Part shown: positions 24,275 to 48,484 of the stretch, in pieces
Position numbering within the stretch: position 1 is the stretch's first letter
Layout of the letters: the number at the start of each line of letters is the position of its first letter
Source: Thermoanaerobaculia bacterium
GTDB lineage: Bacteria > Acidobacteriota > Thermoanaerobaculia > Multivoradales > UBA5704
Reading direction: 5' to 3'
Length of the DNA: 64,000 nucleotides
Assembly (NCBI GenBank): GCA_035544875.1
Contig: DASZZP010000038.1
Coordinates: forward strand, 192,185-256,184
Translations under genes and position numbers: made by a program
The notes under the pieces: generated by a model
Told to the model about the DNA's origin: nothing
Databases searched by the model: none
Seen by the model: the letters and a program-made list of their open reading frames with translations, nothing else

Positions 24275-24850
24275 CTACGGCCGGGCGGCCGCCGACGGCG
24301 ACGACGTTGCGGATGCTGCGGGGCGCGCGGCCCGGGAGGCCGGCGGCGCCGGATTGGGCTTGTAGAGGGTGACCAGGCAGCCGCCGAGCGCGGCCAGCAC
24401 GATGCCGGCGAAGAAGGGCCAGCGGATGCCGCGCCAGCCGCCGGCCGGCGGCTGCAGGAGCAGCGCGACCACCGCGTTGACGATCGGCGCGCCGGCGAAG
24501 ACGATCGACATCACCACCGGCGGCGTGCCGCGGGCGCCGAAGGCGAGGAGGACGCCGAATGCTCCCACCGCCCCGGCCACGCCGGCGGCGAGCGACCAGA
24601 GCATGCCGGTGCCCGGAAAGCTCCAGGAGGTCCCGCCGCGCGCCGCCAGCCAGCCGAGCGGGGCCAGCACGGCGGTGAAGAAGTAAGCCACGCCGACGAA
24701 CAGGAAGGCCTTGTAGCGGCCGTTCACCGGGTCGGCCATGCCGACCTGCCCGCTGTGCAAGAGGATGCCGTAGAGCCCCCACGCGACCACCGACGACAGC
24801 GCGAACAGCAACCACGCGAGACCCGCCCCTGCACCTTCTCCGCTGGTCAT
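24275..24850 (-). CDS. Small 4-TM membrane protein, last gene of the large cluster
   Basis: AAGAGGA RBS, ATG 24850. Four hydrophobic helices. Lies 60 nt after the permease stop. Confidence 0.55.
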   Translation of the reverse strand: MTSGEGAGAGLAWLLFALSSVVAWGLYGILLHSGQVGMADPVNGRYKAFLFVGVAYFFTAVLAPLGWLAARGGTSWSFPGTGMLWSLAAGVAGAVGAFGVLLAFGARGTPPVVMSIVFAGAPIVNAVVALLLQPPAGGWRGIRWPFFAGIVLAALGGCLVTLYKPNPAPPASRAARPAASATSSPSAAARP

Positions 24851-24910
24851 GGCCTTTGTCCTCTTAGATCTGATTATCTGATTGATTCCCCGGCCTGGCC
24901 CCTGCCCGCC

Positions 24911-27900
24911 TCAACGCTCTGCCTTGAGCGCCGGCACCAGCGGCACCCGGAGCGCGCTGGCCGCGGCGACGGCGCTCGCCAGCATGCCGGCCAGCAGCAC
25001 GGCGGCCAGGGTCGCGGTCAGGGAGCGCCATGGCAATCCCCCGGCCAGTCCCGCGCCGAGCGCCTCCGGCAGCAGTCCGGCGGCGGTTCCCAGCGCCACC
25101 CCGAGTGCGAGCAGGGCCGCGTTCTCGAGCAGCAGCAGGCCGGCCAGCTGGTGCCTGCGGAAACCGAAGGCGCGAAGCGCCGCGAGCTCCCAGCGCCGCT
25201 CGACCACGTTGCGCAGCAGCACCACCGCGAGACCGCAGGTGCCGAGCAGCAGGCCGAGGCTGCCCAGGGCCTGGAAGCTCGCGAGGTAGGTCTCCTCCAC
25301 CTTGGCGTAGAGGCGCAGCCGCTCGGCAACCGGCACCACCTCGAATCCGAAGTCGCGCAGCTGGTCGCCGAGCAGGCCGGCGACGGCGTTTTCCCGCCCG
25401 CGAGCCGTGCGCACCAGGAAAAAGCTGCGCCCGCCATGGCGCGGGAAGTGGCGCGCCAGCTCTTTCTCCGGGATCAGCAGCGCGTCCTGCAAGGGGCTGC
25501 CGGCGAGCAGGCCGACGATGCGCAGCCGCACCGGCTCGCCGCGCTCGCCGGCCAGGCTCAGCTCGTCGCCGACCCCGAGATGGAGGATCCAGCGCACCGA
25601 CTGCTCGTCGCCGAGCGCCGGTACCACCTCGGACCCCGCTCCGCCAGCGCGCGCCGCGGAGCGCGCCTTGGCGAAGAGGTCCGCCAGGCTCCCCTCCCCC
25701 GCGGCCATCGCGAAGGTTCGGCGCGCCAGGAGAGGCGGCACGCCCAGCAGCCGCGGCCGCCGCGGCTGGTAGAGGTTGAGACAGCTCGCGTCGTCGCCCG
25801 GCACCGCCGGCAGGCCGACGATCTCGCCGCCGGCGAGCAGCCGCTCGGCCGGCTCGGGAAAGCCGAGCGCGCGGCGCCCGTCGCTCCGGCCGAGGTCGTG
25901 GTAGAGAGGGGTCGCGGACTCGGCGAGCAGTGTGAATCCTCCCCACTCCCGCCCCTCCCCCGCCGCGCCAGCGCGGCGGTTGGCCGCCACCAGCACCAGC
26001 ACGAAGCAGGCGCAGGCCACCAGGGCGACCGCGAGCACGCTGCGGCCCGGGTTGGCGGCGGTGTTGCGGACCCCCAGGATCATCAGGCCGCCGCCGGGCG
26101 ACTCCCGCTCGCCGACCGCCAGGCACCAGAGCGCGAAGGCGCTGACGCCGGCCGCGAGCAGACTGGCGCCGCTGCCGAAGGCGAGGGCCGGCGCGCCGCC
26201 CCCAGCGGCACGGAGAGCCACGGCCAGCACGACGCCGGCGGCGCCCGCGGCGAGGCCAACCGCCCGCCACCAGGGCCGGCGGCGCTCGCCGCGCCCCGCC
26301 GTCACGGCGCCGGCCAGCAGTTGCGCCACCGGCAGCCGGCCCATCCGGCGCACGCCGGCGGCGAGGAAGACGAGCACCGTGACGACGCTCCCCAGCCAGC
26401 CCCAGACGAAGGTCGAGGGGCTGGCCGCAAACGCGAGCCGCGGCGCGCCCGCCCCCGCTTGCAAACCGCCGAGCAGCGGCAAGGCGAAGGCGCCCGCGCC
26501 TGGGAGACCGAGCAGCGCGCCGGCGCCGGCTAGCACCAGCCCTTCGCCCAGGAAGCGGCGCCGCACCGCGCCGGCCGGGTAGCCCAGGGCCAGCAGCAGG
26601 CCGACCTCGCGCGCCCGGCGCTCGAGCCCGAGAGTGAAGAGCAGACCGGTCACCAGCGCCGCGGAGACGATCAGGAACGAGCTGAAGCTGACGAACAGCG
26701 AGCTGAAGTCGGTGCCCTCGGCGGCCGACCGCAGCCCCTCGGCGCGCACCGGGCGCAGGGCGAGGCCGAACGCCGCGGGCCGCAGGCGCGCCAGGAGGAG
26801 CGGCTCGAAACGCGCGGCGAAGGCGGCGGCGCTTTCACCCGCCGGGCAGCTGAGGCGCAGCGAGGTGAGGTCGCCGAAGCGGGTGTGCCAAAGCCGGCGG
26901 CCGGCGGCGAGGCTCACGAAGGCCTTGGGAGTGGGCCCGAAGCGCTGCCAGTATGCCTCGTCGCGCGGCCGCACCCGGTGGAGATCGACCGGAAAGGGCG
27001 GCGACCACGAGGCCATGTCGCGCGCCTGGTCGATGCCGGGGAAGGCAGGGGTCAGGCCGCGGTCCGCCGCCAGTCCGGCGAGAGCCACCACGCCGCGCAC
27101 CCTGAAGCTGGCGCTGGCGGTGGCGAGCGGCGCTCCGGCGCTGCCGCTGTCGGGCAGGAAGTAGCTCATCGCGACCCTGTCGCCGGGCCGCGCCGCGAGA
27201 TCCTCCGCCGCCCAGCTGTCGAGCAGGATGTCGTCGCCCTCGGGCAGCGCCGCCGGCTCACCGCTCGCCAGGAGCAGCTCGCCGGCGCCCAGGTCGGCTT
27301 TCGACCGAGGTACGTCAGGGGTGGTTTTCACAGCCTTCAAGCCGGTGGGAGGAGTCCCGGCCCCCCCGGCGAGCCAGCGCCTGGCAGGCCGCCTTCCGAC
27401 CGAGGTCCCAGAACGGCGGCGATCCTCTTCGCTCCATTCAAGCCGGTGGGAGGAGTCCCGGCCTCCCTGGCGAGTCAGCGCCTGGCGGGTCGCCTTCCGA
27501 CCGAGGTCCGCGAGCCGCCACTCCAAACCCCCATAGCGTCTTGCCTCACCCGCCCCACCAGCGAGCGGACCTCGGTCGGAAGGCGACCCGCGAGGCGCCC
27601 CCCGGCCATTCGCGAGCCCGGGACGGAGGGGTCCCACTGCGCTCACCATCGAGTAGGGAACGGCGCGCCCGTGGGCGGCGAGCTCGATCGCCAGGTAGGT
27701 CAGGACCGGCTGCGCCGCCGAGCCCAGCTCGACGGCGGCCGCCGCGGCGCCCTCCGCCACCGCCGGCGGCAGGAAGAACTCGCCGCTCTCGAGCGCGAGG
27801 CAGGCGGCGCCGCCGGCCGCGCCGAGCGGGCGCAGGGCAAGGCCGATGTCGTCGAGCCGCAGGCCAGCGGCAAGCGCCTTCTCCGCCCCCTGCGCCCTCA

Positions 27901-28738
27901 TCGCCCCCTGCGCCCTCATCGCCGACGGCGCACGGCCGTCCTCAGGCAGCTGGCCGATCAGCAGAGCGTTGGCGCGCCCTGCCTGCCCCAGCTCGCGCTG
28001 GAGCTCGGCGAGCGGCACGAAGGCGTTGGGCGGGGTCGCCTGCCCGGCCGCCAGGTCGAAGCTCCCCGAACCGCGGTCGGGGACCACGCCGGCGACGGTG
28101 AAGCGATGCGTCGCGAGCTGCCCCTCGGGGTCCTTGGCGGCCAGCAGCATCTCGCGTGGGATGGCGCTCGGCTGCTCCCAGGACAGCAGGACGTCGTCGC
28201 CGGGCCGCGCTCCGAGCTGCCGCGCCAGCGTCTCGTTGACCGTCAGAGGGGGCAGCAGCCCGGTGCCCGCCGGGCCTGCCGAGCCCGCCGGCAGCGGCGC
28301 CGGCGCGCCGGGGTAGAGCGCGGCGAAGCGCCGATCGACGCCGAGGACGGCGACCCGGGCGGCACGGCGGTTGAGGGCGGCGTGCACGGCGGTGCCGCGC
28401 AGCACGATCAGCGGGGCGACAATTGGCGTGGGCGGCGTGGGCAGCGTGGGCGGCATGGGTGCCGCGGGTGCCCCGCCCGCCGTCGCCTGCGCCACGGCCG
28501 TGGCCGCCGCCGGCCGGGCCAGCCGGCGCGCCATCTCCTCCGCCAGCTCCTCGCGGAAGAAGTGCGGCGCCACCGCCGCCAGCTCGATGTCGCCGAGCCG
28601 TTCGAGCCACAGCCGCCGCAGGCTGTCGCGCACCGAGTCGCCCACCGCCAGCGCGCCGGTCAGCACGCTGGTGGTGACCGCCGCGCCGAGCAGCACCGCG
28701 AGGTGGAGGCGCCAGAAGTGGGTCAGGCTGCGAAGCAC
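24911..28738 (-). CDS. Giant ABC-transporter permease with two MacB/FtsX-type modules (YbbP-like, ~1275 aa)
   Basis: N-terminal TM1 MLRSLTHFWRLHLAVLLGAAVTTSVL followed by a large extracytoplasmic domain and an FtsX 3-TM bundle. The second half repeats the arrangement (GVRNTAANPGRSVLAVALVACACFVLV...FtsX). GTG start overlaps the ATPase gene by 16 nt. Confidence 0.8.
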   Translation of the reverse strand: MLRSLTHFWRLHLAVLLGAAVTTSVLTGALAVGDSVRDSLRRLWLERLGDIELAAVAPHFFREELAEEMARRLARPAAATAVAQATAGGAPAAPMPPTLPTPPTPIVAPLIVLRGTAVHAALNRRAARVAVLGVDRRFAALYPGAPAPLPAGSAGPAGTGLLPPLTVNETLARQLGARPGDDVLLSWEQPSAIPREMLLAAKDPEGQLATHRFTVAGVVPDRGSGSFDLAAGQATPPNAFVPLAELQRELGQAGRANALLIGQLPEDGRAPSAMRAQGAMRAQGAEKALAAGLRLDDIGLALRPLGAAGGAACLALESGEFFLPPAVAEGAAAAAVELGSAAQPVLTYLAIELAAHGRAVPYSMVSAVGPLRPGLANGRGAPRGSPSDRGPLAGGAGEARRYGGLEWRLADLGRKATRQALTRQGGRDSSHRLEWSEEDRRRSGTSVGRRPARRWLAGGAGTPPTGLKAVKTTPDVPRSKADLGAGELLLASGEPAALPEGDDILLDSWAAEDLAARPGDRVAMSYFLPDSGSAGAPLATASASFRVRGVVALAGLAADRGLTPAFPGIDQARDMASWSPPFPVDLHRVRPRDEAYWQRFGPTPKAFVSLAAGRRLWHTRFGDLTSLRLSCPAGESAAAFAARFEPLLLARLRPAAFGLALRPVRAEGLRSAAEGTDFSSLFVSFSSFLIVSAALVTGLLFTLGLERRAREVGLLLALGYPAGAVRRRFLGEGLVLAGAGALLGLPGAGAFALPLLGGLQAGAGAPRLAFAASPSTFVWGWLGSVVTVLVFLAAGVRRMGRLPVAQLLAGAVTAGRGERRRPWWRAVGLAAGAAGVVLAVALRAAGGGAPALAFGSGASLLAAGVSAFALWCLAVGERESPGGGLMILGVRNTAANPGRSVLAVALVACACFVLVLVAANRRAGAAGEGREWGGFTLLAESATPLYHDLGRSDGRRALGFPEPAERLLAGGEIVGLPAVPGDDASCLNLYQPRRPRLLGVPPLLARRTFAMAAGEGSLADLFAKARSAARAGGAGSEVVPALGDEQSVRWILHLGVGDELSLAGERGEPVRLRIVGLLAGSPLQDALLIPEKELARHFPRHGGRSFFLVRTARGRENAVAGLLGDQLRDFGFEVVPVAERLRLYAKVEETYLASFQALGSLGLLLGTCGLAVVLLRNVVERRWELAALRAFGFRRHQLAGLLLLENAALLALGVALGTAAGLLPEALGAGLAGGLPWRSLTATLAAVLLAGMLASAVAAASALRVPLVPALKAER

Positions 28739-29559
28739 AGCCCGTCTCGCAGCTCGAGCCGGCGCGCGCAGCGGGCGGCGAGCGGACGACTATGGGTGGC
28801 GATGACCAGCATCGTCCCTTCCTGCCGCTGCAGCTCGAAGAGCAGCTCGGTGGCCGCCTCGGCCGTGGCGTGGTCGAGGCTGCCGGTCGGCTCGTCGCAC
28901 AGCAGCAGCGCCGGCCGGTGCAGCAGGGCGCGGGCGATGGCGGCGCGCTGGCGCTCGCCGCCCGACAGCTCGGCCGGCCGGTGGCGCAGGCGATCGGCGA
29001 GCCCGACCCGCGCCAGCAGCTCCTCGGCCCGCGGCCGCGCGCTCCCCCAGCGGCGCTGAAAGGCCAGCGCGGGCAACAAGACGTTCTCGAGCACCGAGTA
29101 CTGGGGCAGCAGATAGTGGTCCTGGAAGACGAAGCCGATGCGCTCGTTGCGCAGCCGCGCCAGGACCCGCTCGGGCAGCGTGTAGAGGTCGCGGCCGGCG
29201 AGCGTCACCGTGCCGCCGGTCGGCCGCTCGAGGGTCCCCAGGATGTGCAGCAGCGTGCTCTTTCCCGACCCCGACGGCCCGATGATGGCGAGCGTCTCCC
29301 CCGCCGCCAGGCGGAAGCCGACGCCGCGCAGCACCGGCAGCTCCCGTCCTCCCAGGGTGAAGCTCTTGCGCAGCTCGTGGACGGTCAGCAGGCGGGCCGG
29401 CTCCGGCTGGCGATTGCCGGAGCCAGTGGACTCGGCCGACTCGCCCGGATCGCCTGGATCTCCGGAGCCCGCGTGCTCGCCGGGACCGCCGGCAACGGCG
29501 GCCGCGGCAGGCTCGGCGGCGGCGCCGGTTGTGGAGTCGCCAGGTGCGCCGGGCGCCAT
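28723..29559 (-). CDS. ABC transporter ATP-binding protein (MacB/LolD-like)
   Basis: Walker A GPSGSGKST, Q-loop, signature LSGGERQRAAIARAL, Walker B LLLCDEPT. ATG at 29559 lies 2 nt after the GT4 stop. Confidence 0.85.
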   Translation of the reverse strand: MAPGAPGDSTTGAAAEPAAAAVAGGPGEHAGSGDPGDPGESAESTGSGNRQPEPARLLTVHELRKSFTLGGRELPVLRGVGFRLAAGETLAIIGPSGSGKSTLLHILGTLERPTGGTVTLAGRDLYTLPERVLARLRNERIGFVFQDHYLLPQYSVLENVLLPALAFQRRWGSARPRAEELLARVGLADRLRHRPAELSGGERQRAAIARALLHRPALLLCDEPTGSLDHATAEAATELLFELQRQEGTMLVIATHSRPLAARCARRLELRDGLCFAA

Positions 29560-29561
29560 GC

Positions 29562-30983
29562 TCAGCCCCGGCCGCCGCCCACTGCTGCGGTTGCTGCGCC
29601 CGCTGCGCGCGCCGTCCGCTCCCCGCCAGCGCCGTCTAGACAGCGCTCGTAGAGCGCCAGGGTGGCGGCGGCCATCGCCTCGGCGCTGAAGCGGCCGTGC
29701 ACCGCGGCGCGCCCGGCGCGGCCCAGGCGCTCGCGCCGCTCGGGGTCCGCGAGCAGCTCGCCGAGCGCCGCGGCCAGCTCGGCGGGAGCATCGGGCGCCA
29801 CCAGGACGCCGCCGCCGGTCTCCTCGAGCAGCTCGGGAAAAGCGCCGCGGCGCGGCGCCACCACCGGCACGCCGCTGGCGAGCGCCTCGAGCACGTACAG
29901 CCCTTTCGGCTCGGCGAAGAGGGCCGGCGCCGCCAGCACGTCGAGGCCGGCGAGGAAGCGCAGCTTCTCCTCGCGCGTCACCTCGCCGAAGTAGCGGTAG
30001 GCGCCGGCGAGGCCCCAGCCGGCGAGCTGGCGCTCGATGCCGCGCAGGTAGCCCCGGTGCTGCGCCGGCAGGTAGCCGGCGACGTGCAGCCGCACGCGCC
30101 CGGCGCCCAGCGACAACGCCACCTGGCGGAAGGCGTCGGCGAGCAGCTGCAGCCCCTTCTCCGGCGCGATGCGGGCCAGGTAGCCGATCACCCACGGCCG
30201 GCCGGCCTCCGGGGCTGCGGCCGGCGGCGGGCGGTAGCCGGCGAGGTCAGCGCCAGAGGAGTCAGAGGACCCCGTGGAGCCAGCGGAGCCATGGCCGGAG
30301 AGCTGGATGCCCAGCGGCACCACCGCCAGGCGGGTGCGCTCCACTCCCAGATAGGACGCCATGAAGTCGGCGTAGAAGCGGTTCGGGGCGACGAACAGGT
30401 CGATGTCGCGGGCGCGCTCGGCGAGCGCCGCGCGCACCTCGCCGCGGCTCGGCTCGGGCAGCGAGTCCAGGAACAGCTCCTCGCCCTGCACCGAGCACAG
30501 CACCGGCACGCCGAGCTCGGCCTTCAGGCGGCGCGCGAAGCCGGCGAACATCGAGTTCGTCAGGTGGACGACCTCGGGCTGAAAGGTGTCGCGCAGCCAG
30601 CCGAGGAGCTTGTCGAGCTCGCCCGCCTGGTGGCCCTCCTCGCCGCGCAGAATCGACAGCGTCAGCTCGCCCAGGCGCCGCGGATCGGTCGACGAGCCGA
30701 GCCGCGACACCAGCGCAAGCAGCCGCGGGCGGTCGAGCAGCCGCTCGAGGCGCGCCGGAGCGCGGCGCAGCAGCGGCGCGATCTGCTTGAGGTAGACGTT
30801 GAGGGCGCCGAAGAACACCCGGTCGATGCTCACGTCCGGCTCGTCGGTGCGCAGGCGGGTGTAGGTCGGCACCAGCACCGCGTCATGGCCCAGCCGCTGC
30901 AGCGCCGCCACCAGCGTGTTGTCGTGCAGGCAGCTGCCGCAGTACATGTGGGCCGCGCCGGCCGAGATATAGGCGATTCTCAC
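29562..30983 (-). CDS. Glycosyltransferase family 4 (cluster-associated)
   Basis: ...GYLARIAPEKGLQLL...FAEPKGLYVLEALASGVPVVAPRRGAFPEL... (GT4 donor-binding region). ATG at 30983. Confidence 0.8.
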   Translation of the reverse strand: MRIAYISAGAAHMYCGSCLHDNTLVAALQRLGHDAVLVPTYTRLRTDEPDVSIDRVFFGALNVYLKQIAPLLRRAPARLERLLDRPRLLALVSRLGSSTDPRRLGELTLSILRGEEGHQAGELDKLLGWLRDTFQPEVVHLTNSMFAGFARRLKAELGVPVLCSVQGEELFLDSLPEPSRGEVRAALAERARDIDLFVAPNRFYADFMASYLGVERTRLAVVPLGIQLSGHGSAGSTGSSDSSGADLAGYRPPPAAAPEAGRPWVIGYLARIAPEKGLQLLADAFRQVALSLGAGRVRLHVAGYLPAQHRGYLRGIERQLAGWGLAGAYRYFGEVTREEKLRFLAGLDVLAAPALFAEPKGLYVLEALASGVPVVAPRRGAFPELLEETGGGVLVAPDAPAELAAALGELLADPERRERLGRAGRAAVHGRFSAEAMAAATLALYERCLDGAGGERTARAAGAATAAVGGGRG

Positions 30984-43361: not shown

Positions 43362-44502
43362 CAGTACACCCCGACCACCACCGAGCTGGCGAGCGCCTCG
43401 AGCAGGCGCACGTTGCGCACCCCGTCCCACGGGAACCCGGCGACCGGGGCGGCGCGCTCGGCCTGGTCGCGCTCGAGGAAGCGCGGCATGAAAAACTCGC
43501 GCGTCAGGGTGGTGAGCATCACCTGTCCGGTTTCGCCGTACTCCACCCGCCGCTCGGGATCGTCGGGATCCACCAGCTCGAGCACGGCGCGCGGTTGCGG
43601 CGCGTAGTAGGTGATGGCCCAGCGCGACTCGGGCGGCTCGGGCGACTCGGAGACGCCGCCGCCGGCGCCGTCCGCCGCGCCCGCCCCCCCGGGGGCGGGA
43701 CAGGCGAGCCCCATCAACGTGTTGCCGTAGACCGGGTAGAAGACGACGCCCGGGATCAGCTCCTCGCGCGCGAAGCGGTGGAACTGCGGGCTCATCTCGG
43801 TGCCGCCGCAGAAGACGCCGCGGATGCCCAGCCGCGGCAGCGCGACCCGCTCGGCAAGCGCGGCGAGCAGCTTCGGCGTGGTGAACAGGCAGCGGATGCT
43901 CTCGTGCGCCCGCAGCAGCTTGAGCCCCTGCTCGACGACGTGGCGCTTGTAGGCCTCGAGCTCCCGCGGCCGGCCGTCCCTGATCAGCTCGTTGACCCAG
44001 CGCGGATCGAGGTCGACCAGGAAGCAGATGCCGCCGCGGTGCTGGGCCAGGTGCTCGATCGCCAGGCGCAAGCGGCGCGGCCCGGTCGGCCCCAGCATCA
44101 GCCAGTCGGCGCCGCGCGGGAAGCCGTCCTCCGGGAGGCGCTCGCTCAGCTGCTCGTAGTCGATGCGGAAGTCCTCGATGTTGATGCGCGACTTCGGCAG
44201 GCCGGTCGAGCCGCCGGTCTCGAACACCGCGATCGGGCGGTCGGCCAGGGCGCGCGGCACCCAGCGCCGGATCGGACCGCCGCGCAGCCACTCGTCCTCG
44301 AAGTGGCCCAGCCGCCGCAGGTCGTCGTAGCCGCCGATCTCGCGCCGCGGATCGAAGTCGAGGCGTCGGGCGTAGTCGAGCCAGAACGGCGAGCCGGTCG
44401 CGGGGTCGAAGTGCCAGCGCACGACCTCGCGCACGTGCTCGTCGAGCCGCTCGCGGGCAGCCCTCACCGCCGCGGCCAACGAGCTCTCGAGGATGGCGGT
44501 CA
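43361..44502 (-). CDS. LuxE/PaaK-like adenylate-forming enzyme (acyl-protein synthetase / phenylacetate-CoA-ligase fold)
   Basis: AMP-binding P-loop FETGGSTGLPKSR, ...VFCGGTEMSP..., about 380 aa. No in-frame ATG is available, so a TTG start at 44502 (RBS GGAGAG) is proposed. Start is uncertain. Confidence 0.5.
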
Positions 44503-44577
44503 AGATCTTCTCTCCGGCGTCGTAGCCCGCTCGTCCTGCCCGCTCGTCCTGCCCGGTCGTCCTGCCAAGAGCCTCCG

Positions 44578-46233
44578 CTACCGCGGAGGCCTGACGGGAG
44601 CGGCTGATGCCGGGTCCGCTGAGGCCGCCGCCTTGTGCTCCGGAATGCCTTCGGCGATCGCGAACAGCTTCGAGCGGGAGGTGACGTAGAGCACGCCGTC
44701 GCGCGCCACCGGGGTGCTGAACACGGCGCTCCCCAGATTGATCTTGCTCAGCACTTCGAGCTGGCGGGCCGCCCGCAGCACCGCGACGTCGCCGTCCTCG
44801 TTGCCGATATAGACCTTGCCGTCGGCGAGGAGCGGCGAGCCCCAGATCGCGCCGTAGGAGTTGTAGACCCAGTACGGCTTGCCGGTCTGGGCGTCGAGGC
44901 AGTAGACGTAGCCCGAGAAATCGGCCGTGAACAGCAGTCCGTCGCGCACCGCAACCGTCGACAGGCTGCGATGGAAGTCCTCGCCGCCGCGTTGCCAGAC
45001 CACCGCCTTGCCGGTCAGGTCGCCCTCGCCGCGCGGCCGCAGCGCCCACAGGTGGCCGATGCCTTCGCCGTGTTCGGGGTCCTCGCCGACCGCGACGTAG
45101 ACCATGTCGCCGGCGATCACCGGCATCGCTAGGATGCCGTTGCGCGTCGAGCCGGGACCGATGGTGTAGACCGAGTCCTTGGGGTTGCAGTCGAAGCGCC
45201 AGATGACCTTGCCGGTCTTCGGCTCGAGGGCGTAGAGCCAGCCGTCGCCGCCGGCGAAGAGCACCTGCGGCTTGCCGTCGAGGACGCCATAGGAGGGGCT
45301 CGACCACTGCCCGTGCAGGATCTTCTCGCCCGGCAGCGAGCTCTGCCAGACGACCTTGCCGGTGTGCTTGTCGACGGCGAGGAAGCTGGGCGCCCGCGGC
45401 GCCGGGATGTTGATATGCCCTTCGTCGACGCCGTTGCCGGTGACCACGTAGACCAGGTCGTCGATGACCAGCGGGCTGCTCGCCGCTTGGTTGTGCGGGT
45501 AGACGCCGAGCTCGCCGATCATGTCGAGCTTCCAGACGAAATCGGCGTCGATCTCGCTGGTCTCGGTCTCGGCGGTGAAGGGGCCGTCGTTCTTGCCGTC
45601 GCGGAACCCCTCGGTGTCGGCGCACACCAGCTCGGCGCGGTTCGAGACGTAATAGAGCCGGTTGCCCTCGACCGCCGGCGTCGAGCAGATGCCTTGCAGC
45701 GGCCAGTCGTTGACCTTGCCCTGGCTCAGCTTGTCGTGTGCGGCCTGCCAGAGGAACTGGCCGTCGGCGGCGCGGAAAGCCATGATCACACCGCGGTCGC
45801 CGGTGATCTTCGGATTGCGCTTGCCCTGGTTGTTGGTGCCGACGAAGACCTTGCCGCCGGCCACCAGCGGCCCGCCATAGCTCTGCGACCCCAGGTCGGC
45901 GGCCCACTTGACATTGAGGCCGGTCGCGGGGTCCCAGCGGCTGGGCAGGTGGGTCGCGTCCGAGACCATGTTGCGCGCCGGAGTGCCGCCGTACATCGCC
46001 CGGTCGGCCGCGCCGCCCGGCGCCGATGCCGCCGGCAGTGCCTGCGCCGCCGCGGTTGCCGGCGCCGGCCGGGCCGCCGATCCGCCAGGCGGTGCCGGAG
46101 AAGCTGGCGCCGCTGCCGGCGCGGACGGCGCGGTCGGCGCTGTCGGAGACATGGGCGCCGGCTCGAGGCGGCCGGCGGCGAACAGCGCCGCGAGCGCCAG
46201 CAGCTGACCTTTACCGATCATCCTTGCCATCAC
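44578..46233 (-). CDS. Secreted PQQ-like beta-propeller repeat protein 3 (551 aa)
   Basis: Signal peptide MMARMIGKGQLLALAALFAAG, Pro/Ala-rich linker, then 8 propeller-blade repeats (...GQFLWQ, ...GKVVWQS, ...GKVIWRF, ...GKPYWVY). Confidence 0.75.
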   Translation of the reverse strand: MMARMIGKGQLLALAALFAAGRLEPAPMSPTAPTAPSAPAAAPASPAPPGGSAARPAPATAAAQALPAASAPGGAADRAMYGGTPARNMVSDATHLPSRWDPATGLNVKWAADLGSQSYGGPLVAGGKVFVGTNNQGKRNPKITGDRGVIMAFRAADGQFLWQAAHDKLSQGKVNDWPLQGICSTPAVEGNRLYYVSNRAELVCADTEGFRDGKNDGPFTAETETSEIDADFVWKLDMIGELGVYPHNQAASSPLVIDDLVYVVTGNGVDEGHINIPAPRAPSFLAVDKHTGKVVWQSSLPGEKILHGQWSSPSYGVLDGKPQVLFAGGDGWLYALEPKTGKVIWRFDCNPKDSVYTIGPGSTRNGILAMPVIAGDMVYVAVGEDPEHGEGIGHLWALRPRGEGDLTGKAVVWQRGGEDFHRSLSTVAVRDGLLFTADFSGYVYCLDAQTGKPYWVYNSYGAIWGSPLLADGKVYIGNEDGDVAVLRAARQLEVLSKINLGSAVFSTPVARDGVLYVTSRSKLFAIAEGIPEHKAAASADPASAAPVRPPR

Positions 46234-46237
46234 CGCG

Positions 46238-48484
46238 TCACCGGTTCCTTGTCACGCTCAGGTTGGTGAACAGGATCTCCGCCGGCGAGTAGCCGTAGAG
46301 TCCCGGGCTGCCGTTGCGCACCGGGCGCGGGTCGCGCGCGGTGACCGTCCAGCCGGCGGGCTCCGGCTCGCCGCGCGGCCACACCTTGCCGCGGATCAGC
46401 CCCTGGTCGCCTTGCACTTCGGCCCGCAGCTTCATCGTGTACCAGACGTCCGGCGTCCACTTGAAATCGACCTGCTCCATCAGCCGCAGCTCGGTGTCCC
46501 AGGCGCGCAGCTGCAGGCGCTGGCTCGCCCCCATCAGGTCGAGGACGTAGCCGCTGGCGATCAGCCCCATGTCCGGCAGCACCTGGCCGGCCTGGGTGCC
46601 GAGCAGGTCGGCCTGCACCGTGTAGTCGCGCAGCGTCGGCGGGCCGATATAGGTGTTCGCGCGGTGGAGGCCGCGCGGCGCCGGGGGCTTGGCCAGGACC
46701 CTGCCGTAACGGGTCTCCTTGACCACGAACTTGCCGGGAGCGCCCACCCAGCCGGGCGGCGAGCTGGGCGCCAGCGCCGCGAAGTCCTCTTTCCAGGGGA
46801 GATCGGGCACCACGCGCACCCGCGCCTTGGCGGCGAGCTCGCCCCAGCGTGCGTTGATCTCTCCGGTCTGGAATCCGCGGCCGGGGTCGGCGACAAACGT
46901 GCCGTCCGCGTCGAGGCGGCCGGCCAGCCCCGCCAGCGACCAGCTCACTGCTGAGGACGCTCCGGGCGGCGGCGCCACCGCCAGGCCCTGCTCGTCGAAG
47001 GCCACGCCGCGGAAGCGCGCCGGCTCGCCCGGCCGGATCAGCACCTCGGCAGGCACCACCTGCAGCAGGCGCGCGCCCCCGGCGGCCGGCGTGCCCGCCC
47101 CGGCCGCCCTGCCTGCCGGCTCGGCCGCGCTCTCGGCCCGCAGCGGCTGCGACTTTTCGCCCAGGCAGTAGAGCCCGCTCTCGGCGGCGAAGTAGATCCG
47201 CCCGTAGGCCACCGCCGGCGAGCCGTAGATCTCGGCGAAGCGGCTGCCGTCGGCGGTGCGCAGGCGCTGCTCGTCGAGCACCTCCACGCTGCCGCGGCTG
47301 GGCTTCAGGATGTCGAACCGGCCGTTGACCTCGGCGACGTAGAGCTTGCCGTCGGCCCACACCGGCGACGCCTTGCCGATGGTGCCGAGCTTGTGCCTCC
47401 AGAGGATCTTGCCGGTCGTTGCGTCGAGGGCGGCGAGGGCGGCCGCGTTGTCCACGACGTAGAGCAGCCCGTCGTGGTAGAGCGGCGACGGGAAGCCCGA
47501 CACCACCTCGTCATTGCGCCAGAGCTCGTGCGTGCGCGTCACGTCGCCGGTGCCGGTGGCGTCGATCGCTACCACCCTGCCCTGCAGCCCGGTGTCGAGG
47601 TTCTCCTCGCCGTGGGCGGCGAAGACCACCTTGTCGTGCACGACCACCGTGTTGTTGAACGCGCCCTTGCTCAGGTGAAAGCTCCAGACCTTCTCGCCGG
47701 TGCGCGCCTTGAGCGCGTAGATCCAGCCGTCGCCCTGACCTTCGATGAGCAGCCGCTGGCCGCCGATCTCGGCCACCACCGGCGTCGTCTGGATGTTGAA
47801 ATCCTGCGGCAGCTCGCCGGGGGTCGACACCCAGCGCAGCTCGCCGGTGCGCTTGTCAAAGGCGAAGACGCGGTGGCGGGGGGGACCCTGGTCGCCCCAG
47901 CCGGCGTTGACGAAGCTGACGATCAGCCGGTCCTCGTCCACCAGCGGCGAGTGCGTGCGGCCGCCGACCCCGGAGATGAGTCCGAACTCCTCGGTCAGCG
48001 ACCGCCACCACGCGATCTTGCCGTCGCGGTCGAAGCAATACAGCAGCCCGCCGACGCCGAGCGCGTAGACGTTGCCGGTCTCGCGGTCGGCAGCCAGGCT
48101 GCCCCAGCCGACGCGGCTGAACGGCACCGCCGTGAGATAAACGTCGAGAAAACGCTCCCAGAGCTTGCGGCCGCTGGCCGCGTCGAAGCAGGCCACGCTC
48201 TCCTGGCGAGTTGGACCGTTGCCGACGCGGCCGTTGGCACAGACCCGGCCGCCGACCACCACCGGCGTCGAGCGGCCGCTCAGATCGGCCCGCCAGACCA
48301 GGTTCTCGCCCGCGGGGCTCCACTTCGAGATCAGCTGGACGTCGCTCGCGACGCCGTTCTGCTGCGGCCCGCGCCAGGAAGGCCAGTCAGCCCGGACGCG
48401 CCGTGCCCCGAGCCCGCCCGCCAGCAGGATGCATCCCAACCCGATCAGCAAGCGCCGCCACGGCATCGCTCTCGCTCCATTCAT
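46238..48484 (-). CDS. Secreted PQQ-like beta-propeller repeat protein 4 with an extra ~300-aa C-terminal domain
   Basis: Signal peptide MNGARAMPWRRLLIGLGCILLAGG, propeller repeats (...GRKLWER, ...GELRWVS, ...GEKVWSF, ...GKILWRH), then a non-propeller domain of unknown family. Start assigned to the ATG at 48484 (RBS GGTGAGGA). Confidence 0.7.
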   Translation of the reverse strand: MNGARAMPWRRLLIGLGCILLAGGLGARRVRADWPSWRGPQQNGVASDVQLISKWSPAGENLVWRADLSGRSTPVVVGGRVCANGRVGNGPTRQESVACFDAASGRKLWERFLDVYLTAVPFSRVGWGSLAADRETGNVYALGVGGLLYCFDRDGKIAWWRSLTEEFGLISGVGGRTHSPLVDEDRLIVSFVNAGWGDQGPPRHRVFAFDKRTGELRWVSTPGELPQDFNIQTTPVVAEIGGQRLLIEGQGDGWIYALKARTGEKVWSFHLSKGAFNNTVVVHDKVVFAAHGEENLDTGLQGRVVAIDATGTGDVTRTHELWRNDEVVSGFPSPLYHDGLLYVVDNAAALAALDATTGKILWRHKLGTIGKASPVWADGKLYVAEVNGRFDILKPSRGSVEVLDEQRLRTADGSRFAEIYGSPAVAYGRIYFAAESGLYCLGEKSQPLRAESAAEPAGRAAGAGTPAAGGARLLQVVPAEVLIRPGEPARFRGVAFDEQGLAVAPPPGASSAVSWSLAGLAGRLDADGTFVADPGRGFQTGEINARWGELAAKARVRVVPDLPWKEDFAALAPSSPPGWVGAPGKFVVKETRYGRVLAKPPAPRGLHRANTYIGPPTLRDYTVQADLLGTQAGQVLPDMGLIASGYVLDLMGASQRLQLRAWDTELRLMEQVDFKWTPDVWYTMKLRAEVQGDQGLIRGKVWPRGEPEPAGWTVTARDPRPVRNGSPGLYGYSPAEILFTNLSVTRNR

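What the first reader, a model, noticed from the sequence alone, without database searches (positions are those of the whole stretch)
24275..48484. 24-kb single-strand, translationally coupled cluster that combines an acyl-activation/reduction triad with a radical SAM enzyme, a halogenase-like flavoenzyme, GT4, a giant MacB-type exporter, a TonB receptor and four secreted PQQ-like propellers
Seen in sequence:
- Sixteen consecutive minus-strand CDS with intergenic gaps of 65 nt or less.
- Five 4-nt ATGA/GTGA stop-start overlaps, at 43361, 41727/41724, 39149/39146, 32816/32813 and 32568/32565.
- This strongly suggests one transcription unit.

Established knowledge:
- LuxE-type adenylating enzymes with LuxC-type reductases convert fatty acids to fatty aldehydes.
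- Fe-alcohol dehydrogenases reduce aldehydes to alcohols.
- GT4 enzymes glycosylate lipids and alcohols.
- MacB/FtsX-type ABC exporters (for example DevBCA for heterocyst fatty-alcohol glycolipids) export glycolipids.
- HemN-like class C radical SAM enzymes often act as C-methyltransferases.
- Trp-halogenase-fold flavoenzymes halogenate or reduce lipids and aromatics.

Inference: the locus builds and exports a tailored (possibly methylated or halogenated) fatty-alcohol-derived glycolipid or envelope lipid. The propellers and the TonB receptor would provide outer-membrane handling, and the SSS/DUF3311 pair would import a precursor. I do not recognise this exact gene combination as a described pathway.
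Basis: partly seen in the sequence, partly recalled or inferred. Interest (0 to 1): 0.85.

Follow-up and report, generated by a model that had tools for sequence, protein, structure and literature searches.

The report
Conserved acid-reducing, halogenating export gene cluster
Sixteen tightly packed genes, conserved across at least four little-studied bacterial phyla, appear to turn a carboxylic acid into a reduced, halogenated, sugar-tagged small molecule and move it across the cell envelope. Nobody has identified the product.

Summary
The 16 minus-strand genes are real (24275-48466). The contig is a Thermoanaerobaculia (Acidobacteriota) MAG, and the gene order recurs in Acidobacteriota, Poribacteria, Latescibacterota and Gemmatimonadota: at least 600 species-level genomes carry the hub gene.

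The "LuxE/LuxC" pair is not LuxE/LuxC, since neither Pfam model matches. It is homologous to EhpF/EhpG of phenazine biosynthesis. EhpF is an ANL adenylase without the C-terminal domain. EhpG is an ALDH-fold protein that keeps the catalytic Cys but lacks the usual ELGGK Glu motif.

Natural fusions of the ALDH-like protein to an Fe-ADH exist, which supports acid to aldehyde to alcohol.

The flavoenzyme carries the three halogenase signatures checked (GxGxxG, WxWxIP, Lys). The radical SAM enzyme is HemN-like (class C).

GT4, a LolD-like ATPase and a 10-TM FtsX permease travel with the core pair. No membrane-fusion or TolC partner is present. A TonB siderophore-type receptor, an SSS/DUF3311 pair, an EamA-like protein and four distinct periplasmic PQQ-like propellers complete the locus.

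The fatty-alcohol glycolipid reading is not supported. Every clue to the substrate points to an aromatic acid, but the substrate remains unproven. The cluster is uncharacterised, and only a 2026 preprint mentions clusters of this kind.

The parts
46238..48466 (-). g16: secreted PQQ-like beta-propeller, 742 aa, with an unmatched C-terminal region of about 250 aa
   Evidence: Pfam PQQ_2 127.8 bits. The deposited protein HVT58458.1 matches exactly. The N-terminus looks like a signal peptide. Positional orthologues share 45-55% identity in other phyla. A profile search against the PDB matches only generic blade repeats, BamB and PQQ-dehydrogenase fragments.
44578..46221 (-). g15: secreted PQQ-like beta-propeller, 547 aa, with many invariant Asp/His/Glu/Trp positions
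   Evidence: Pfam PQQ_2 101.5 bits. HVT58457.1 matches exactly. Orthologues share 54-64% identity and sit immediately upstream of g14 in type A loci. Invariant acidic and His positions include D381-P-E-H-G-E386. No specific PDB relative was found.
43361..44503 (-). g14: EhpF-type ANL adenylase, 380 aa, without the ANL C-terminal domain. It is the hub gene of the cluster.
   Evidence: The profile hits PDB 3HGU/3L2K (EhpF) at E = 1e-50, across the full length of both proteins. Identity to Pantoea EhpF is 31% (E 2e-47), including the C-terminal GVY. The P-loop FETGGSTGLPK is invariant. Pfam AMP-binding scores below its cut-off and LuxE does not match. More than 8000 homologue clusters were found, at 63-70% identity across phyla.
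41724..43361 (-). g13: EhpG-type ALDH-fold reductase, 545 aa
   Evidence: Identity to the ALDH-family gene that follows ehpF in Pantoea agglomerans is 27% over 430 aa (E 6e-34). Cys311 (GGRSCINAS) is conserved in at least 95% of 52 sequences. I read VHGPGFSK as occupying the place of the ALDH ELGGK Glu motif, from motif order and knowledge of ALDHs, not from an alignment to a canonical ALDH. Only 1226 cluster representatives match at E <= 0.001 among 1.84 billion. Fusions to Fe-ADH exist. The gene lies near g14 in 40 of 44 long loci, usually immediately downstream.
40423..41727 (-). g12: iron-containing alcohol dehydrogenase (start codon uncertain)
   Evidence: Pfam Fe-ADH 150.8 bits and ADH_Fe_C 112.3 bits. 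The GGGS motif and D236/H240/H305/H319 are conserved; I take these to be the Fe-ADH metal ligands from knowledge of the family. No NCBIfam equivalog cut-off is reached. None of the four starts tried matched a deposited protein.
39146..40378 (-). g11: secreted PQQ-like beta-propeller (PF13570 family; start codon uncertain)
   Evidence: Beta-prop_ACSF4 188.7 bits, above its cut-off of 133, and PQQ_2 156.8 bits. The N-terminus looks like a signal peptide. It lies between Fe-ADH and the radical SAM gene in most type A loci that hold them (L090 lacks it).
37782..39149 (-). g10: HemN-like (class C) radical SAM enzyme, 455 aa
   Evidence: Radical_SAM 72.7 bits and HemN_C 25.2 bits. CRKRCKFC lies at residues 72-79. 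PDB matches are HemN 1OLT (7e-35) and the methyltransferase NocN 9P2U (7e-28). HutW, STM4012 and HemN equivalogs all score about 175 bits, below their cut-offs. HVT58452.1 matches exactly.
36395..37759 (-). g9: secreted PQQ-like beta-propeller, 454 aa
   Evidence: PQQ_2 124.1 bits. HVT58451.1 matches exactly. Orthologues share 44-56% identity at the same position in L009, L012, L014 and L055, and a propeller holds that position in L091.
34188..36365 (-). g8: TonB-dependent receptor of the siderophore-receptor subfamily, 725 aa
   Evidence: Plug and TonB_dep_Rec_b-barrel domains. TIGR01783 scores 241.3 bits against a cut-off of 223.5. This is the only NCBIfam model that reaches its cut-off for any of the 16 proteins. 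HVT58450.1 matches exactly.
32813..34135 (-). g7: flavin-dependent halogenase, 440 aa
   Evidence: The best PDB matches are halogenases: 8ZOP (5e-64), PltA (6e-59), 5BUK, ChlB4, 3E1T, 5BVA and CmlS. GGGPAG, WFWYIP (236-241) and Lys91 are invariant in 26 orthologues. Lys91 aligns with a Lys in PltA and 8ZOP.
32565..32816 (-). g6: small DUF3311 membrane protein, 83 aa
   Evidence: DUF3311 scores 28.5 bits against a cut-off of 30. HVT58448.1 matches exactly. It has 4-nt overlaps with both neighbours. The same pairing with the SSS gene is seen in L086 and L091, and in L012 and L079 by similarity.
30991..32568 (-). g5: sodium:solute symporter family transporter, 525 aa
   Evidence: SSF 106.3 bits. 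The nearest equivalogs, PanF, PutP and MctP, are all far below their cut-offs. HVT58447.1 matches exactly.
29562..30983 (-). g4: GT4 glycosyltransferase with a conserved N-terminal MYCGSCxxDN motif
   Evidence: Glycos_transf_1 84.7 bits, plus Glyco_transf_4. It follows g13 in about 26 type B loci. PDB matches cover only the donor-binding half (MshA, sucrose-phosphate synthase, PimB, pterin glucosyltransferase). The Cys motif is conserved in at least 90% of 37 sequences.
28723..29559 (-). g3: ABC ATPase of the LolD/YbbA/MacB type
   Evidence: ABC_tran 120.8 bits. LolD scores 251.6, YbbA 220.9 and the MacB ATPase 191.4 bits, all below equivalog cut-offs. It follows GT4 in 23 long loci.
24911..28738 (-). 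g2: 1275-aa permease with two FtsX matches, about 10 TM helices and two large periplasmic domains
   Evidence: FtsX has two matched stretches (79.9 bits). MacB_PCD scores 25.8 bits, below its cut-off of 27. Hydropathy predicts TM helices at about 14-32, 687-919 (six helices) and 1157-1260 (three helices). No PDB relative was found by sequence. Orthologues of 1107-1151 aa follow the ATPase.
24275..24850 (-). g1: 5-TM DMT/EamA-like membrane protein, 191 aa. It is the loosest member of the locus.
   Evidence: The window protein has no Pfam hit. JGI names homologues 'DMT-like permease'. The positional equivalent in L091 hits Pfam EamA. It lies on the opposite strand in type B loci. Homologues also occur in unrelated contexts.

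Best explanation
The locus is a conserved system that makes, tailors and transports a small molecule. It is built around a two-protein carboxylic-acid reductase.

Proposed steps:
1. g14, an EhpF-type adenylase, activates a free carboxylic acid as an acyl-AMP.
2. g13, an EhpG-type ALDH-fold enzyme, takes the acyl group on Cys311 and reduces it with NAD(P)H to an aldehyde.
3. g12, an Fe-ADH, reduces the aldehyde to an alcohol.
4. g7 halogenates the scaffold, and the HemN-like radical SAM enzyme g10 modifies it, most likely by C-methylation.
5. g4, a GT4 enzyme, adds a sugar.
6. The LolD-like ATPase g3 and the 10-TM FtsX permease g2 expel the product from the inner membrane or periplasm.
7. The TonB receptor g8 and the SSS/DUF3311 pair g5/g6 bring either the precursor acid or the released product back in.
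8. The four secreted propellers (g9, g11, g15, g16) act on or bind the molecule in the periplasm.

The scaffold is more likely an aromatic acid than a fatty acid.

Shown here: gene content, homologies, motifs, synteny and the fusions. Inferred: every chemical step, the order of steps, the direction of transport and the substrate class.
For: Core pair:
- g14 matches EhpF (PDB 3HGU) at E = 1e-50 over the full length of both proteins, with 31% identity.
- g13 matches EhpG at 27% identity over 430 aa, E 6e-34.
- The F-then-G gene order is the same as in the Pantoea ehp cluster and a related E. coli plasmid cluster.
- g13 keeps the catalytic Cys, while VHGPGFSK sits where I place the ALDH ELGGK Glu motif.

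Second reduction:
- g13-like::Fe-ADH fusion proteins of 872 and 856 aa exist.
- g12 keeps the residues I take to be Fe-ADH metal ligands.

Tailoring:
- g7 has the three halogenase signatures checked, invariant in 26 orthologues.
- g10 has the CxxxCxxC motif and matches HemN and NocN.

Synteny:
- g13 lies near g14 in 40 of 44 long loci, GT4 in 26, the ATPase in 23 and the permease in 21.
- The full 16-gene order recurs in L091 and nearly in L086, L079, L012 and L044.

Transport:
- g8 reaches the TIGR01783 siderophore-receptor cut-off.
- Type B loci also carry a TonB-like barrel.

Aromatic substrate:
- The annotated relatives of the pair that were inspected lie in phenazine or chorismate-derived clusters.
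- Variant loci add an Rv2949c-like chorismate pyruvate-lyase, PaaK-like ligases, 4HBT thioesterases and a TPP enzyme.
Against: - No activity has been measured for any of these proteins. To my knowledge the EhpF/EhpG reaction itself is a proposal from structure and genetics.
- No scaffold-forming genes (chorismate lyase, NRPS, PKS) lie in the window, so the source of the acid is unknown.
- There is no carrier protein, yet the closest solved halogenases (PltA, Bmp2, Mpy16) are, to my knowledge, ones that act on carrier-tethered pyrroles.
- No flavin reductase partner is present.
- Type B loci lack the Fe-ADH, the radical SAM enzyme and the halogenase within the stretch fetched. The common denominator is therefore only acid to aldehyde, plus GT4, the exporter and a propeller.
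- Some Poribacteria keep only g16-g15-g14, with no g13 within 10 kb.
- L090 has the rest of the cluster without g14/g13.
- The role of the four propellers is unexplained.
- An ATP- and NAD(P)H-consuming reduction sitting next to two importers could equally be a salvage route.
Confidence: 0.4

Rival explanations
1. The triad reduces a fatty acid to a fatty alcohol. This is methylated or halogenated, glycosylated by GT4 and exported as an envelope glycolipid by the MacB-type pump, in the manner of heterocyst glycolipid and DevBCA.
For: - The acid to aldehyde to alcohol logic is supported.
- GT4 followed by ATPase and FtsX permease is the most conserved accessory block.
- The ATPase has a DevA-family hit of 158.7 bits.
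- To my knowledge, FtsX-type transporters such as LolCDE handle membrane-embedded lipidic substrates.
- A hotdog thioesterase sits before the ATPase in L086 and L091.
Against: - LuxE and LuxC Pfam models do not match, even at E <= 10.
- No ACP, KAS, PKS or acyltransferase genes are conserved in 87 loci.
- No DevB/MacA-type membrane-fusion protein or TolC is present among the 16 products.
- The DevA hit is far below its cut-off of 295.8 bits.
- The closest annotated relatives of the pair act in aromatic pathways.
- The halogenase groups with pyrrole/phenol halogenases.
Confidence: 0.12
2. Metallophore reading. The product is a secreted metal chelator. It is made in the cytoplasm, pumped out by g3/g2, and taken up as the metal complex by the siderophore-type TonB receptor g8. 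The propellers handle it in the periplasm. This is a special case of the best explanation.
For: - g8 is the only product that reaches a curated NCBIfam cut-off, and that model is the TonB-dependent siderophore receptor subfamily.
- Type B loci also keep a TonB-like barrel next to the cluster.
- To my knowledge the layout of synthesis, FtsX-type exporter and receptor mirrors pyoverdine (PvdRT-OpmQ).
- The preprint 10.64898/2026.08.03.742642 remarks that TonB transporters in such clusters are normally a metallophore feature.
Against: - There are no recognisable chelator-building enzymes such as NRPS, NIS synthetase, or DHB or hydroxamate genes.
- An inner-membrane SSS importer is unusual for siderophore uptake.
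- No metal-responsive regulator or Fur box was looked for or seen.
- Subfamily membership of a TonB receptor does not fix its ligand.
Confidence: 0.15
3. Uptake and conversion reading. The locus imports an environmental carboxylic acid, for example a plant- or lignin-derived aromatic acid, through g8 and g5/g6. It processes the acid with periplasmic propeller enzymes, then reduces, halogenates and glycosylates it as a detoxification or salvage route. The ABC pump expels the conjugate.
For: - Two importers (a TonB receptor and SSS/DUF3311) are embedded in the operon, with 4-nt overlaps.
- No scaffold-synthesis genes are present in the window.
- Glycosylation followed by export is a classic detoxification pattern (established knowledge).
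- The carriers are soil, sediment and sponge heterotrophs.
Against: - Spending ATP and two NAD(P)H to reduce a nutrient acid is not catabolic logic.
- Halogenation and radical SAM chemistry are typical of biosynthesis.
- The 63-70% identity of g14 across phyla argues for one fixed substrate rather than a range of xenobiotics.
- Some variant loci carry their own chorismate-lyase-like gene.
Confidence: 0.15
4. Juxtaposition reading. The 16 genes are not one system. They are two or three independent modules that happen to be adjacent here: the propeller/reductase/radical SAM block, the receptor/halogenase/symporter block, and the GT4/ABC/EamA block.
For: - Modules occur separately. Type B loci carry g14-g13-GT4-ABC-FtsX without g12, g10 or g7 within the stretch fetched, and type A Poribacteria carry g16-g15-g14 alone.
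- g7 homologues also occur in unrelated contexts (L087).
- g1 homologues occur next to Gfo/Idh/MocA genes.
- The 60-nt gap before g1 and the 74-nt gap before g14 could hold promoters.
Against: - Both module types share the same hub, g14-g13.
- The complete 16-gene order recurs in L091, where the halogenase is 62% identical, and almost completely in L086, L079, L012 and L044.
- Junctions between the supposed modules are as tight as those within them: g9 to g8 is 29 nt, g5 to g4 is 7 nt and g4 to g3 is 2 nt.
Confidence: 0.1

Closest known systems
EhpF/EhpG of the D-alanylgriseoluteic acid (phenazine) pathway, Pantoea agglomerans Eh1087. The EhpF structures are PDB 3HGU and 3L2K (Bera et al. 2010, Acta Cryst D 66:664, cited in PMC3175449).
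   Same: - An ANL adenylase without the C-terminal domain is followed directly by an ALDH-family protein, in the same order.
- Homology runs over the full length: 31% and 27% identity.
- The P-loop, the C-terminal GVY and the Cys-containing ALDH motif are shared.
- From my knowledge of the 2010 paper, the proposed chemistry is carboxylate to acyl-AMP to aldehyde.
   Different: - Identity is only about 30%.
- The window holds no phenazine (phzA-G) genes.
- The partners here are a halogenase, a class C radical SAM enzyme, GT4, an FtsX pump, a TonB receptor and four propellers. In ehp they are a methyltransferase, an SDR, an MFS transporter and an NRPS-like D-Ala ligase.
- The g14 family is much more conserved, at 63-70% identity across phyla.
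LuxC/LuxE (with LuxD) fatty-acid reductase of luminous bacteria
   Same: The logic is the same. An adenylating enzyme without a CoA or PCP step, together with an ALDH-superfamily reductase, makes an aldehyde from a free acid.
   Different: Pfam LuxE (PF04443) and LuxC (PF05893) do not match g14 or g13 at any E-value up to 10. There is no LuxD-like transferase. There is no evidence for a fatty substrate.
AdhE-type bifunctional aldehyde/alcohol dehydrogenase (ALDH domain fused to Fe-ADH)
   Same: Relatives of g13 occur fused to an Fe-ADH domain in the same N-to-C order. g12 hits the AdhE model over its ADH half (187.4 bits).
   Different: To my knowledge AdhE reduces acyl-CoA. Here the acyl donor is predicted to be an acyl-AMP made by g14. 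In the window the two domains are separate genes.
MacAB-TolC, DevBCA and LolCDE/YbbAP (type VII, FtsX-family ABC transporters)
   Same: There is a LolD/YbbA/MacB-like ATPase. The permease has two FtsX matches and large periplasmic domains. To my knowledge the 10-TM fused architecture resembles YbbP.
   Different: - No membrane-fusion (MacA/DevB) or TolC-like gene is present among the 16 products.
- MacB_PCD scores below its cut-off.
- The permease is about 1275 aa.
- No solved relative is found by sequence.
- All equivalog cut-offs are missed.
PltA/Bmp2/Mpy16/CmlS-type flavin-dependent halogenase pathways, and the 'Halo_AMP' pseudoclass of sponge-symbiont clusters (bioRxiv 10.64898/2026.08.03.742642)
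   Same: - g7 matches these halogenases at E values from 1e-41 to 1e-64 and has their signature motifs.
- The preprint reports halogenase plus AMP-binding clusters in Acidobacteriota, Latescibacterota and Poribacteria. It notes frequent PQQ-like domains, radical SAM enzymes, glycosyltransferases and TonB transporters, and found no MIBiG match.
   Different: - There is no carrier protein, pyrrole or proline-activating gene, or P450 in the window.
- The preprint's focus cluster (CC A) has P450s and is tied to sponges.
- This cluster occurs widely in MAGs of free-living lineages.
- Identity with any of the preprint's clusters could not be checked, because its figures and supplements are not held.

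Membership tests
LuxE acyl-protein synthetase (PF04443) | Match to the family HMM | tested here: not met
   g14 has no hit at E <= 10. The only Pfam hit is AMP-binding at 25.6 bits, below its cut-off of 29.9.
LuxC acyl-CoA reductase (PF05893) | Match to the family HMM | tested here: not met
   g13 has no hit at E <= 10. Its only hit is generic Aldedh at 26.6 bits.
EhpF-type adenylase (atypical ANL) | Full-length homology to EhpF | tested here: met
   A profile built from g14 orthologues hits 3HGU at E 1.2e-50, covering profile positions 18-363 of 363 and chain residues 21-369 of 369. BLASTP gives 31% identity and E 2e-47.
EhpF-type adenylase (atypical ANL) | Absence of the ANL C-terminal (CoA/Ppant) domain | tested here: met
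   g14 is 380 aa and aligns to the last residue of the 366-aa EhpF. AMP-binding_C is not detected.
EhpF-type adenylase (atypical ANL) | ANL phosphate-binding loop (S/T)GG(S/T)TGxPK | tested here: met
   FETGGSTGLPKSR is present. T96, G97, G98, T100, G101, P103 and K104 are invariant in 11 orthologues.
EhpF-type adenylase (atypical ANL) | Adenylation of a carboxylate | not testable with these tools
   This needs an ATP-PPi exchange or AMP-release assay.
EhpG-type ALDH-fold reductase | Homology to EhpG and position directly after the adenylase gene | tested here: met
   Identity is 27% over 430 aa, E 6e-34. The gene lies near g14 in 40 of 44 long loci. There is a 1-nt overlap with g14 in the window.
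EhpG-type ALDH-fold reductase | Catalytic Cys kept, hydrolytic general-base Glu (ELGGK) absent | tested here: inconclusive
   Cys311 is conserved in at least 95% of 52 sequences, and EhpG has GGAACVCAS and VQGPGRSK at the aligned positions. That VHGPGFSK stands where ELGGK would be is my reading from motif order. It was not aligned to a canonical ALDH.
Flavin-dependent halogenase | GxGxxG, WxWxIP and the conserved Lys | tested here: met
   GGGPAG lies at 30-35 and WFWYIP at 236-241. Lys91 aligns with a Lys in PltA and 8ZOP. All are invariant in 26 orthologues.
Flavin-dependent halogenase | Partner flavin reductase, and carrier protein for the PltA-type subclass | tested here: not met
   None of the 16 products has a flavin-reductase or PP-binding domain. 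A partner could be encoded elsewhere.
HemN / HutW(ChuW) / HemW equivalogs | Score at or above the curated equivalog cut-off | tested here: not met
   HutW scores 179.3 against a cut-off of 400, HemN 172.6 against 324.95, and HemW 139.5 against 205.4. g10 is a HemN-like (class C) radical SAM enzyme at superfamily level only, with CxxxCxxC and HemN_C at 25.2 bits against a cut-off of 24.
MacAB-TolC / DevBCA tripartite exporter | Membrane-fusion (MacA/DevB) and outer-membrane (TolC) partners | tested here: not met
   No HlyD, MFP or OEP domain occurs in any of the 16 products, or in conserved neighbours.
MacAB-TolC / DevBCA tripartite exporter | FtsX permease with MacB periplasmic core domain, plus MacB-type ATPase | tested here: inconclusive
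   FtsX has two matched stretches (79.9 bits). MacB_PCD scores 25.8 bits, below its cut-off of 27. The ATPase resembles LolD, YbbA and MacB but misses every cut-off.
TonB-dependent siderophore receptor (TIGR01783) | Plug and barrel domains, and score above the subfamily cut-off | tested here: met
   Plug scores 64.9 bits and the barrel 154.9 bits. TIGR01783 scores 241.3 bits against a cut-off of 223.5. The ligand is unknown.
PQQ-dependent dehydrogenases (TIGR03075, TIGR03074) | Full-length match above cut-off | tested here: not met
   Scores of 18-80 bits compare with cut-offs of 480-833. Only single blades match solved quinoproteins. These are PQQ_2 / PF13570 repeat propellers.
Fe-ADH (PF00465) | Family HMM above cut-off, NAD GGGS motif and Asp/His3 metal site | tested here: met
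   The HMM scores 150.8 bits. G138-S141, D236, H240, H305 and H319 are conserved in at least 90% of 16 sequences. Assigning these residues to the NAD and metal sites rests on my knowledge of the family.
EamA/DMT transporter | Match to PF00892 | tested here: inconclusive
   The window protein has no Pfam hit. The positional equivalent in L091 hits EamA. JGI names homologues DMT-like. The AF2 model was too poor to judge.

The most novel reading that the evidence does not exclude
The locus may encode a so-far unrecognised envelope system that spans several phyla. In it, a halogenated, glycosylated aryl aldehyde or alcohol is made in the cytoplasm and pumped into the periplasm. There it serves the four dedicated PQQ-like propellers as a new cofactor or metallophore, and a dedicated TonB receptor recycles it. 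This would give a function to the abundant 'PQQ-like' propellers of Acidobacteriota, Poribacteria and their relatives.
Probability: 0.12. Interest if true: 0.85.

Novelty: new variant of a known kind. Interest (0 to 1): 0.62.

Why it matters
- **Distribution.** The hub gene occurs in at least 600 species-level genomes, and there are more than 8000 protein clusters at 90% identity. The carriers are phyla that dominate soils, sediments and sponges and are almost unexplored biochemically.
- **No curated family.** Apart from the TonB receptor, no NCBIfam model reaches its cut-off for any of the 16 proteins, and g14 falls below its Pfam cut-off.
- **Fixed target.** A 63-70% identity across phyla for a biosynthetic-type adenylase implies one fixed, important substrate.
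- **What identifying the product would show.** It would reveal a widespread metabolite, possibly halogenated and possibly metal-binding. It would test the proposed EhpF/EhpG two-protein carboxylate reductase chemistry. It would also assign a first function to conserved periplasmic PQQ-like propellers.
- **A caution for current work.** Sponge-centred interpretations of related 'Halo_AMP' clusters need care, because this family is common in MAGs of free-living lineages.

Tried and rejected
- **Structure of g1.** The AF2 model from a 40-sequence alignment had pLDDT 68.6 and pTM 0.44. Foldseek against the PDB found nothing with E <= 0.001.
- **Structure of g14.** The AF2 model from an 11-sequence alignment had pLDDT 50.5 and was unusable, so no fold search was run.
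- **Propellers.** Profile searches of g15 and g16 against PDB sequences matched only repeat blades, designed 'Cake' proteins, BamB and fragments of quinoproteins. No enzyme identity emerged.
- **g2.** It has no solved relative by sequence.
- **GT4.** PDB matches cover only the donor-binding half, so the acceptor cannot be inferred.
- **RNA elements.** Rfam finds no riboswitch or other RNA family in the window. The structured region upstream of g16 (z = -4.2) is a REP-like hairpin pair that also occurs at 7056-7129. It is therefore not a cluster-specific leader.
- **Promoters and terminators.** The consensus scan is no better than shuffled sequence in this 72% GC DNA.
- **Window's own contig.** The look-up of encoding contigs does not hold it.
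- **Start codons.** The deposited starts of g12 and g11 were not found among the alternatives tried.
- **EhpF paper.** It could not be read, so its content is cited from memory and from the reference list of PMC3175449.
- **Preprint supplements.** They are not held.
- **Low-GC stretch downstream.** It has no Pfam or PADLOC hits.
- **Rejected identities for g10 and g7.** I considered heme degradation (ChuW/HutW-like g10 plus a TonB receptor) and quinohemoprotein amine dehydrogenase maturation (QhpG-like g7 plus a propeller). The scores are far below the equivalog cut-offs (for HutW; for QhpG, 144.1 bits against a cut-off of 240), and g7 matches solved halogenases much more strongly.

Full report
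**1. Observation**

The window is 72% G+C. GC3 periodicity and a codon log-odds model give 16 consecutive minus-strand genes between 24275 and about 48470. The exact protein of g14 is deposited as a hypothetical protein of a Thermoanaerobaculia (Acidobacteriota) MAG on a 350-kb contig.

Twelve of my 16 predicted proteins exist as deposited proteins of that contig. The accessions seen run HVT58447-58458 and leave no room for extra genes. The deposited starts put g16 at 48466, g15 at 46221 and g7 at 34135.

With my own starts, junction gaps run from -16 to 74 nt.
- Three 4-nt overlaps rest on deposited starts: 39149/39146, 32816/32813 and 32568/32565.
- The overlap at 41727/41724 depends on an unverified g12 start.
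- The overlap at 43361 is 1 nt (TGATG).

One transcript remains an inference, because the promoter/terminator scans are uninformative.

**2. Gene content**

Pfam and NCBIfam confirm these domain calls:

| Gene(s) | Call |
|---|---|
| g16, g15, g11, g9 | PQQ_2-type propellers, each with an N-terminus that looks like a signal peptide |
| g12 | Fe-ADH |
| g10 | Radical_SAM + HemN_C |
| g8 | TonB receptor. It is the only product to reach a curated NCBIfam cut-off (TIGR01783, siderophore-receptor subfamily) |
| g7 | Trp_halogenase family |
| g6 / g5 | DUF3311 / SSS |
| g4 | GT4 |
| g3 | LolD/YbbA/MacB-like ATPase |
| g2 | 1275-aa permease with two FtsX matches and about 10 TM helices |
| g1 | 5-TM protein without a Pfam hit. 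Homologues are called DMT-like, and the positional equivalent in L091 hits EamA |

The flanks are housekeeping genes: leuABCD upstream and polysaccharide genes downstream.

**3. The activation/reduction pair is EhpF/EhpG-like, not LuxE/LuxC**

- The LuxE and LuxC Pfam models do not match, even at E <= 10.
- A profile of g14 orthologues hits the solved EhpF structures at E = 1e-50 over the full length of both proteins.
- The best hits of g13 in annotated plasmids include the ALDH-family gene that follows ehpF in the Pantoea agglomerans ehp phenazine cluster.
- Pairwise BLASTP gives 31% identity for g14/EhpF and 27% for g13/EhpG.
- g14 keeps the ANL P-loop and has no C-terminal domain.
- g13 keeps the catalytic Cys. 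VHGPGFSK sits where I place the ALDH ELGGK Glu motif, and EhpG has VQGPGRSK at the aligned position.

From my knowledge of Bera et al. 2010 (cited in PMC3175449), EhpF/EhpG were proposed to convert a phenazine carboxylate to the aldehyde through an acyl-adenylate. I could not read the paper.

A scan of 1.84 billion representative proteins shows that the g13 family is small, with 1226 hits at E <= 0.001. It includes proteins of 872 and 856 aa in which the g13-like domain is fused to an Fe-ADH. This is independent evidence that g13 and g12 act in sequence, taking acid to aldehyde to alcohol.

**4. Conservation**

g14 has more than 8000 homologue clusters at E <= 1e-5, at 63-70% identity across phyla. 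The best 80 loci come from Acidobacteriota (Thermoanaerobaculia, Pyrinomonadaceae and other Blastocatellia, Bryobacteraceae, Vicinamibacteria), Poribacteria, Latescibacterota and Gemmatimonadota.

A tblastn search with all 16 proteins shows g13 near g14 in 40 of 44 long loci, and two arrangements:
- **Type A:** g16-g15-g14-g13-g12-g11-g10-(g9)-g8-g7-g6-g5(-g4). It is found in Poribacteria, Latescibacterota, Thermoanaerobaculia and Gemmatimonadota.
- **Type B:** g14-g13-GT4-ATPase-FtsX-(propeller), followed by g1 and a TonB-like barrel on the other strand. It is found in Pyrinomonadaceae and Bryobacteraceae.

The window joins both types. The complete order recurs in L091 and almost completely in L086, L079, L012 and L044. 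The 10-kb flank limit undercounts g8 to g1 in type A loci.

Each of the four propellers has its own positional orthologues, so they are distinct components and not recent duplicates.

**5. Tailoring enzymes**

- **g7.** Its best solved relatives are halogenases: 8ZOP, PltA, 5BUK, ChlB4, 3E1T, 5BVA and CmlS. The GxGxxG and WxWxIP motifs and Lys91 are invariant in 26 orthologues.
- **g10.** It has the CxxxCxxC motif and matches HemN and the methyltransferase NocN. It misses every equivalog cut-off, so its reaction cannot be named.

**6. Substrate class**

Nothing lipid-related is conserved around the core in 87 loci. All clues point to aromatic acids:
- The annotated relatives of the pair that were inspected lie in phenazine or chorismate-derived clusters.
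- The halogenase belongs with the pyrrole/phenol halogenases.
- Variant loci add an Rv2949c-like chorismate pyruvate-lyase with a PaaK-like ligase (L085), a PaaK-like ligase with a 4HBT thioesterase (L086), a 4HBT thioesterase alone (L091), or a TPP enzyme with PhyH (L001).

This evidence is circumstantial.

**7. Transport**

The ATPase and permease resemble type VII (FtsX-family) ABC systems. However, no membrane-fusion or TolC partner is present, so the locus is not a DevBCA or MacAB-TolC equivalent. A YbbAP-like stand-alone extractor is the nearer analogy; this comparison is from my own knowledge.

A siderophore-type TonB receptor and an SSS/DUF3311 importer sit inside the operon.

**8. Literature**

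Full-text searches found no characterisation of this cluster. One preprint (bioRxiv 10.64898/2026.08.03.742642, August 2026) mined sponge metagenomes for halogenase plus AMP-binding clusters. It reports them in Acidobacteriota, Latescibacterota and Poribacteria. It notes unusually frequent PQQ-like domains, radical SAM enzymes, glycosyltransferases and TonB transporters, found no MIBiG match, and established no product.

**9. Model and rivals**

- **Best explanation (0.40).** The locus is a biosynthesis, tailoring, export and uptake system for a reduced, halogenated, glycosylated, probably aryl-acid-derived small molecule. The propellers act in the periplasm.
- **Metallophore special case (0.15).**
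- **Uptake and conversion or detoxification (0.15).**
- **Mere juxtaposition of modules (0.10).**

Three observations fit no model. The propellers have no assigned role. The trio g16-g15-g14 stands alone in some Poribacteria. The L090 variant has the rest of the cluster but lacks g14/g13.

**10. Verdict**

The cluster is real, strongly conserved and uncharacterised. The LuxE/LuxC family assignment and the lipid product are not supported. I class the finding as a new variant of a known kind, namely a small-molecule biosynthetic and transport cluster built on the EhpF/EhpG pair, with interest 0.62.

Noticed in passing
window 48628-48715 and 7056-7129 (minus strand): A REP-like element made of two tandem 43-nt units, each a GC-rich hairpin (GCCGCNCGTCCGG..ATGG.CG.GCGGCACT). 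It occurs in two unrelated intergenic regions, with 4 copies against 0 expected by chance. It explains the strong predicted structure upstream of g16 (z = -4.2).
   Followed up: partly
window 44525-44566: The 74-nt gap between g15 and g14 holds 3.2 tandem copies of a 13-nt unit, GGGCAGGACGAGC on the coding strand. Its function is unknown.
   Followed up: no
window 22000-24200: A stretch just downstream of g1 has lower G+C (about 61% against about 72%). Its ORFs have no Pfam or PADLOC hit. ORF 23381-24148 (minus strand) reads like the signal peptide and N-terminus of an outer-membrane protein. ORF 23012-23485 (plus strand) reads like a small membrane protein. This may be a foreign or decayed insertion.
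   Followed up: partly
window 37041-37131 (minus strand): ARAGORN calls a 91-nt tRNA-Thr(GGU) inside the coding sequence of g9. Rfam finds no tRNA there at the gathering threshold, so this is most likely a false positive.
   Followed up: partly
window 7901-10477 (minus strand): A second MacB_PCD + FtsX permease of 858 aa looks like an orphan permease of the ADOP type that I know as common in Acidobacteria. The ADOP assignment and the neighbouring genes were not examined.
   Followed up: no
window 12021-19814 (minus strand): A polysaccharide-type gene block holds a GT4, a DegT/DnrJ aminotransferase and a 752-aa protein with polysaccharide pyruvyl-transferase and GT2 domains. Several ORFs there have no Pfam hit.
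   Followed up: no
window 51461-56203 (minus strand) and 58912-59991 (plus strand): A leuB-leuD-leuC-leuA operon lies directly upstream of the cluster, and a DAHP synthase lies 10 kb upstream. The DAHP synthase is probably housekeeping, but DAHP synthases do sit inside the phenazine-type clusters that hold EhpF/EhpG.
   Followed up: no
loci L029, L050, L061 (Blastocatellia and a contig labelled Clostridia): These loci carry a variant with two adenylase copies: g14, GT4, a second g14-like gene at 55% identity, then, in L029 and L061, a more divergent g13 at 38% identity.
   Followed up: no
locus L086 2060-3213; locus L090: In L086 an IS (rve/HTH_Tnp_1) is inserted between g14 and g13. L090 carries propellers, Fe-ADH, radical SAM, TonB receptor, halogenase, GT4 and the ABC genes, but no g14/g13 and a shortened radical SAM gene.
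   Followed up: no
locus L085 422-5811: A related locus carries other kinds of beta-propeller (an LDL-receptor YWTD type of 544 aa and a Kelch type of 387 aa) in place of some PQQ-like ones. This suggests the propeller fold, rather than a PQQ-type site, is what the system needs.
   Followed up: no
window 29562-30983 (g4): The GT4 family of this cluster has a conserved N-terminal Cys motif (M13-Y-C-G-S-C18..D21-N22) and Cys163. I have not seen this described for GT4 enzymes. It may be a metal or redox site.
   Followed up: no
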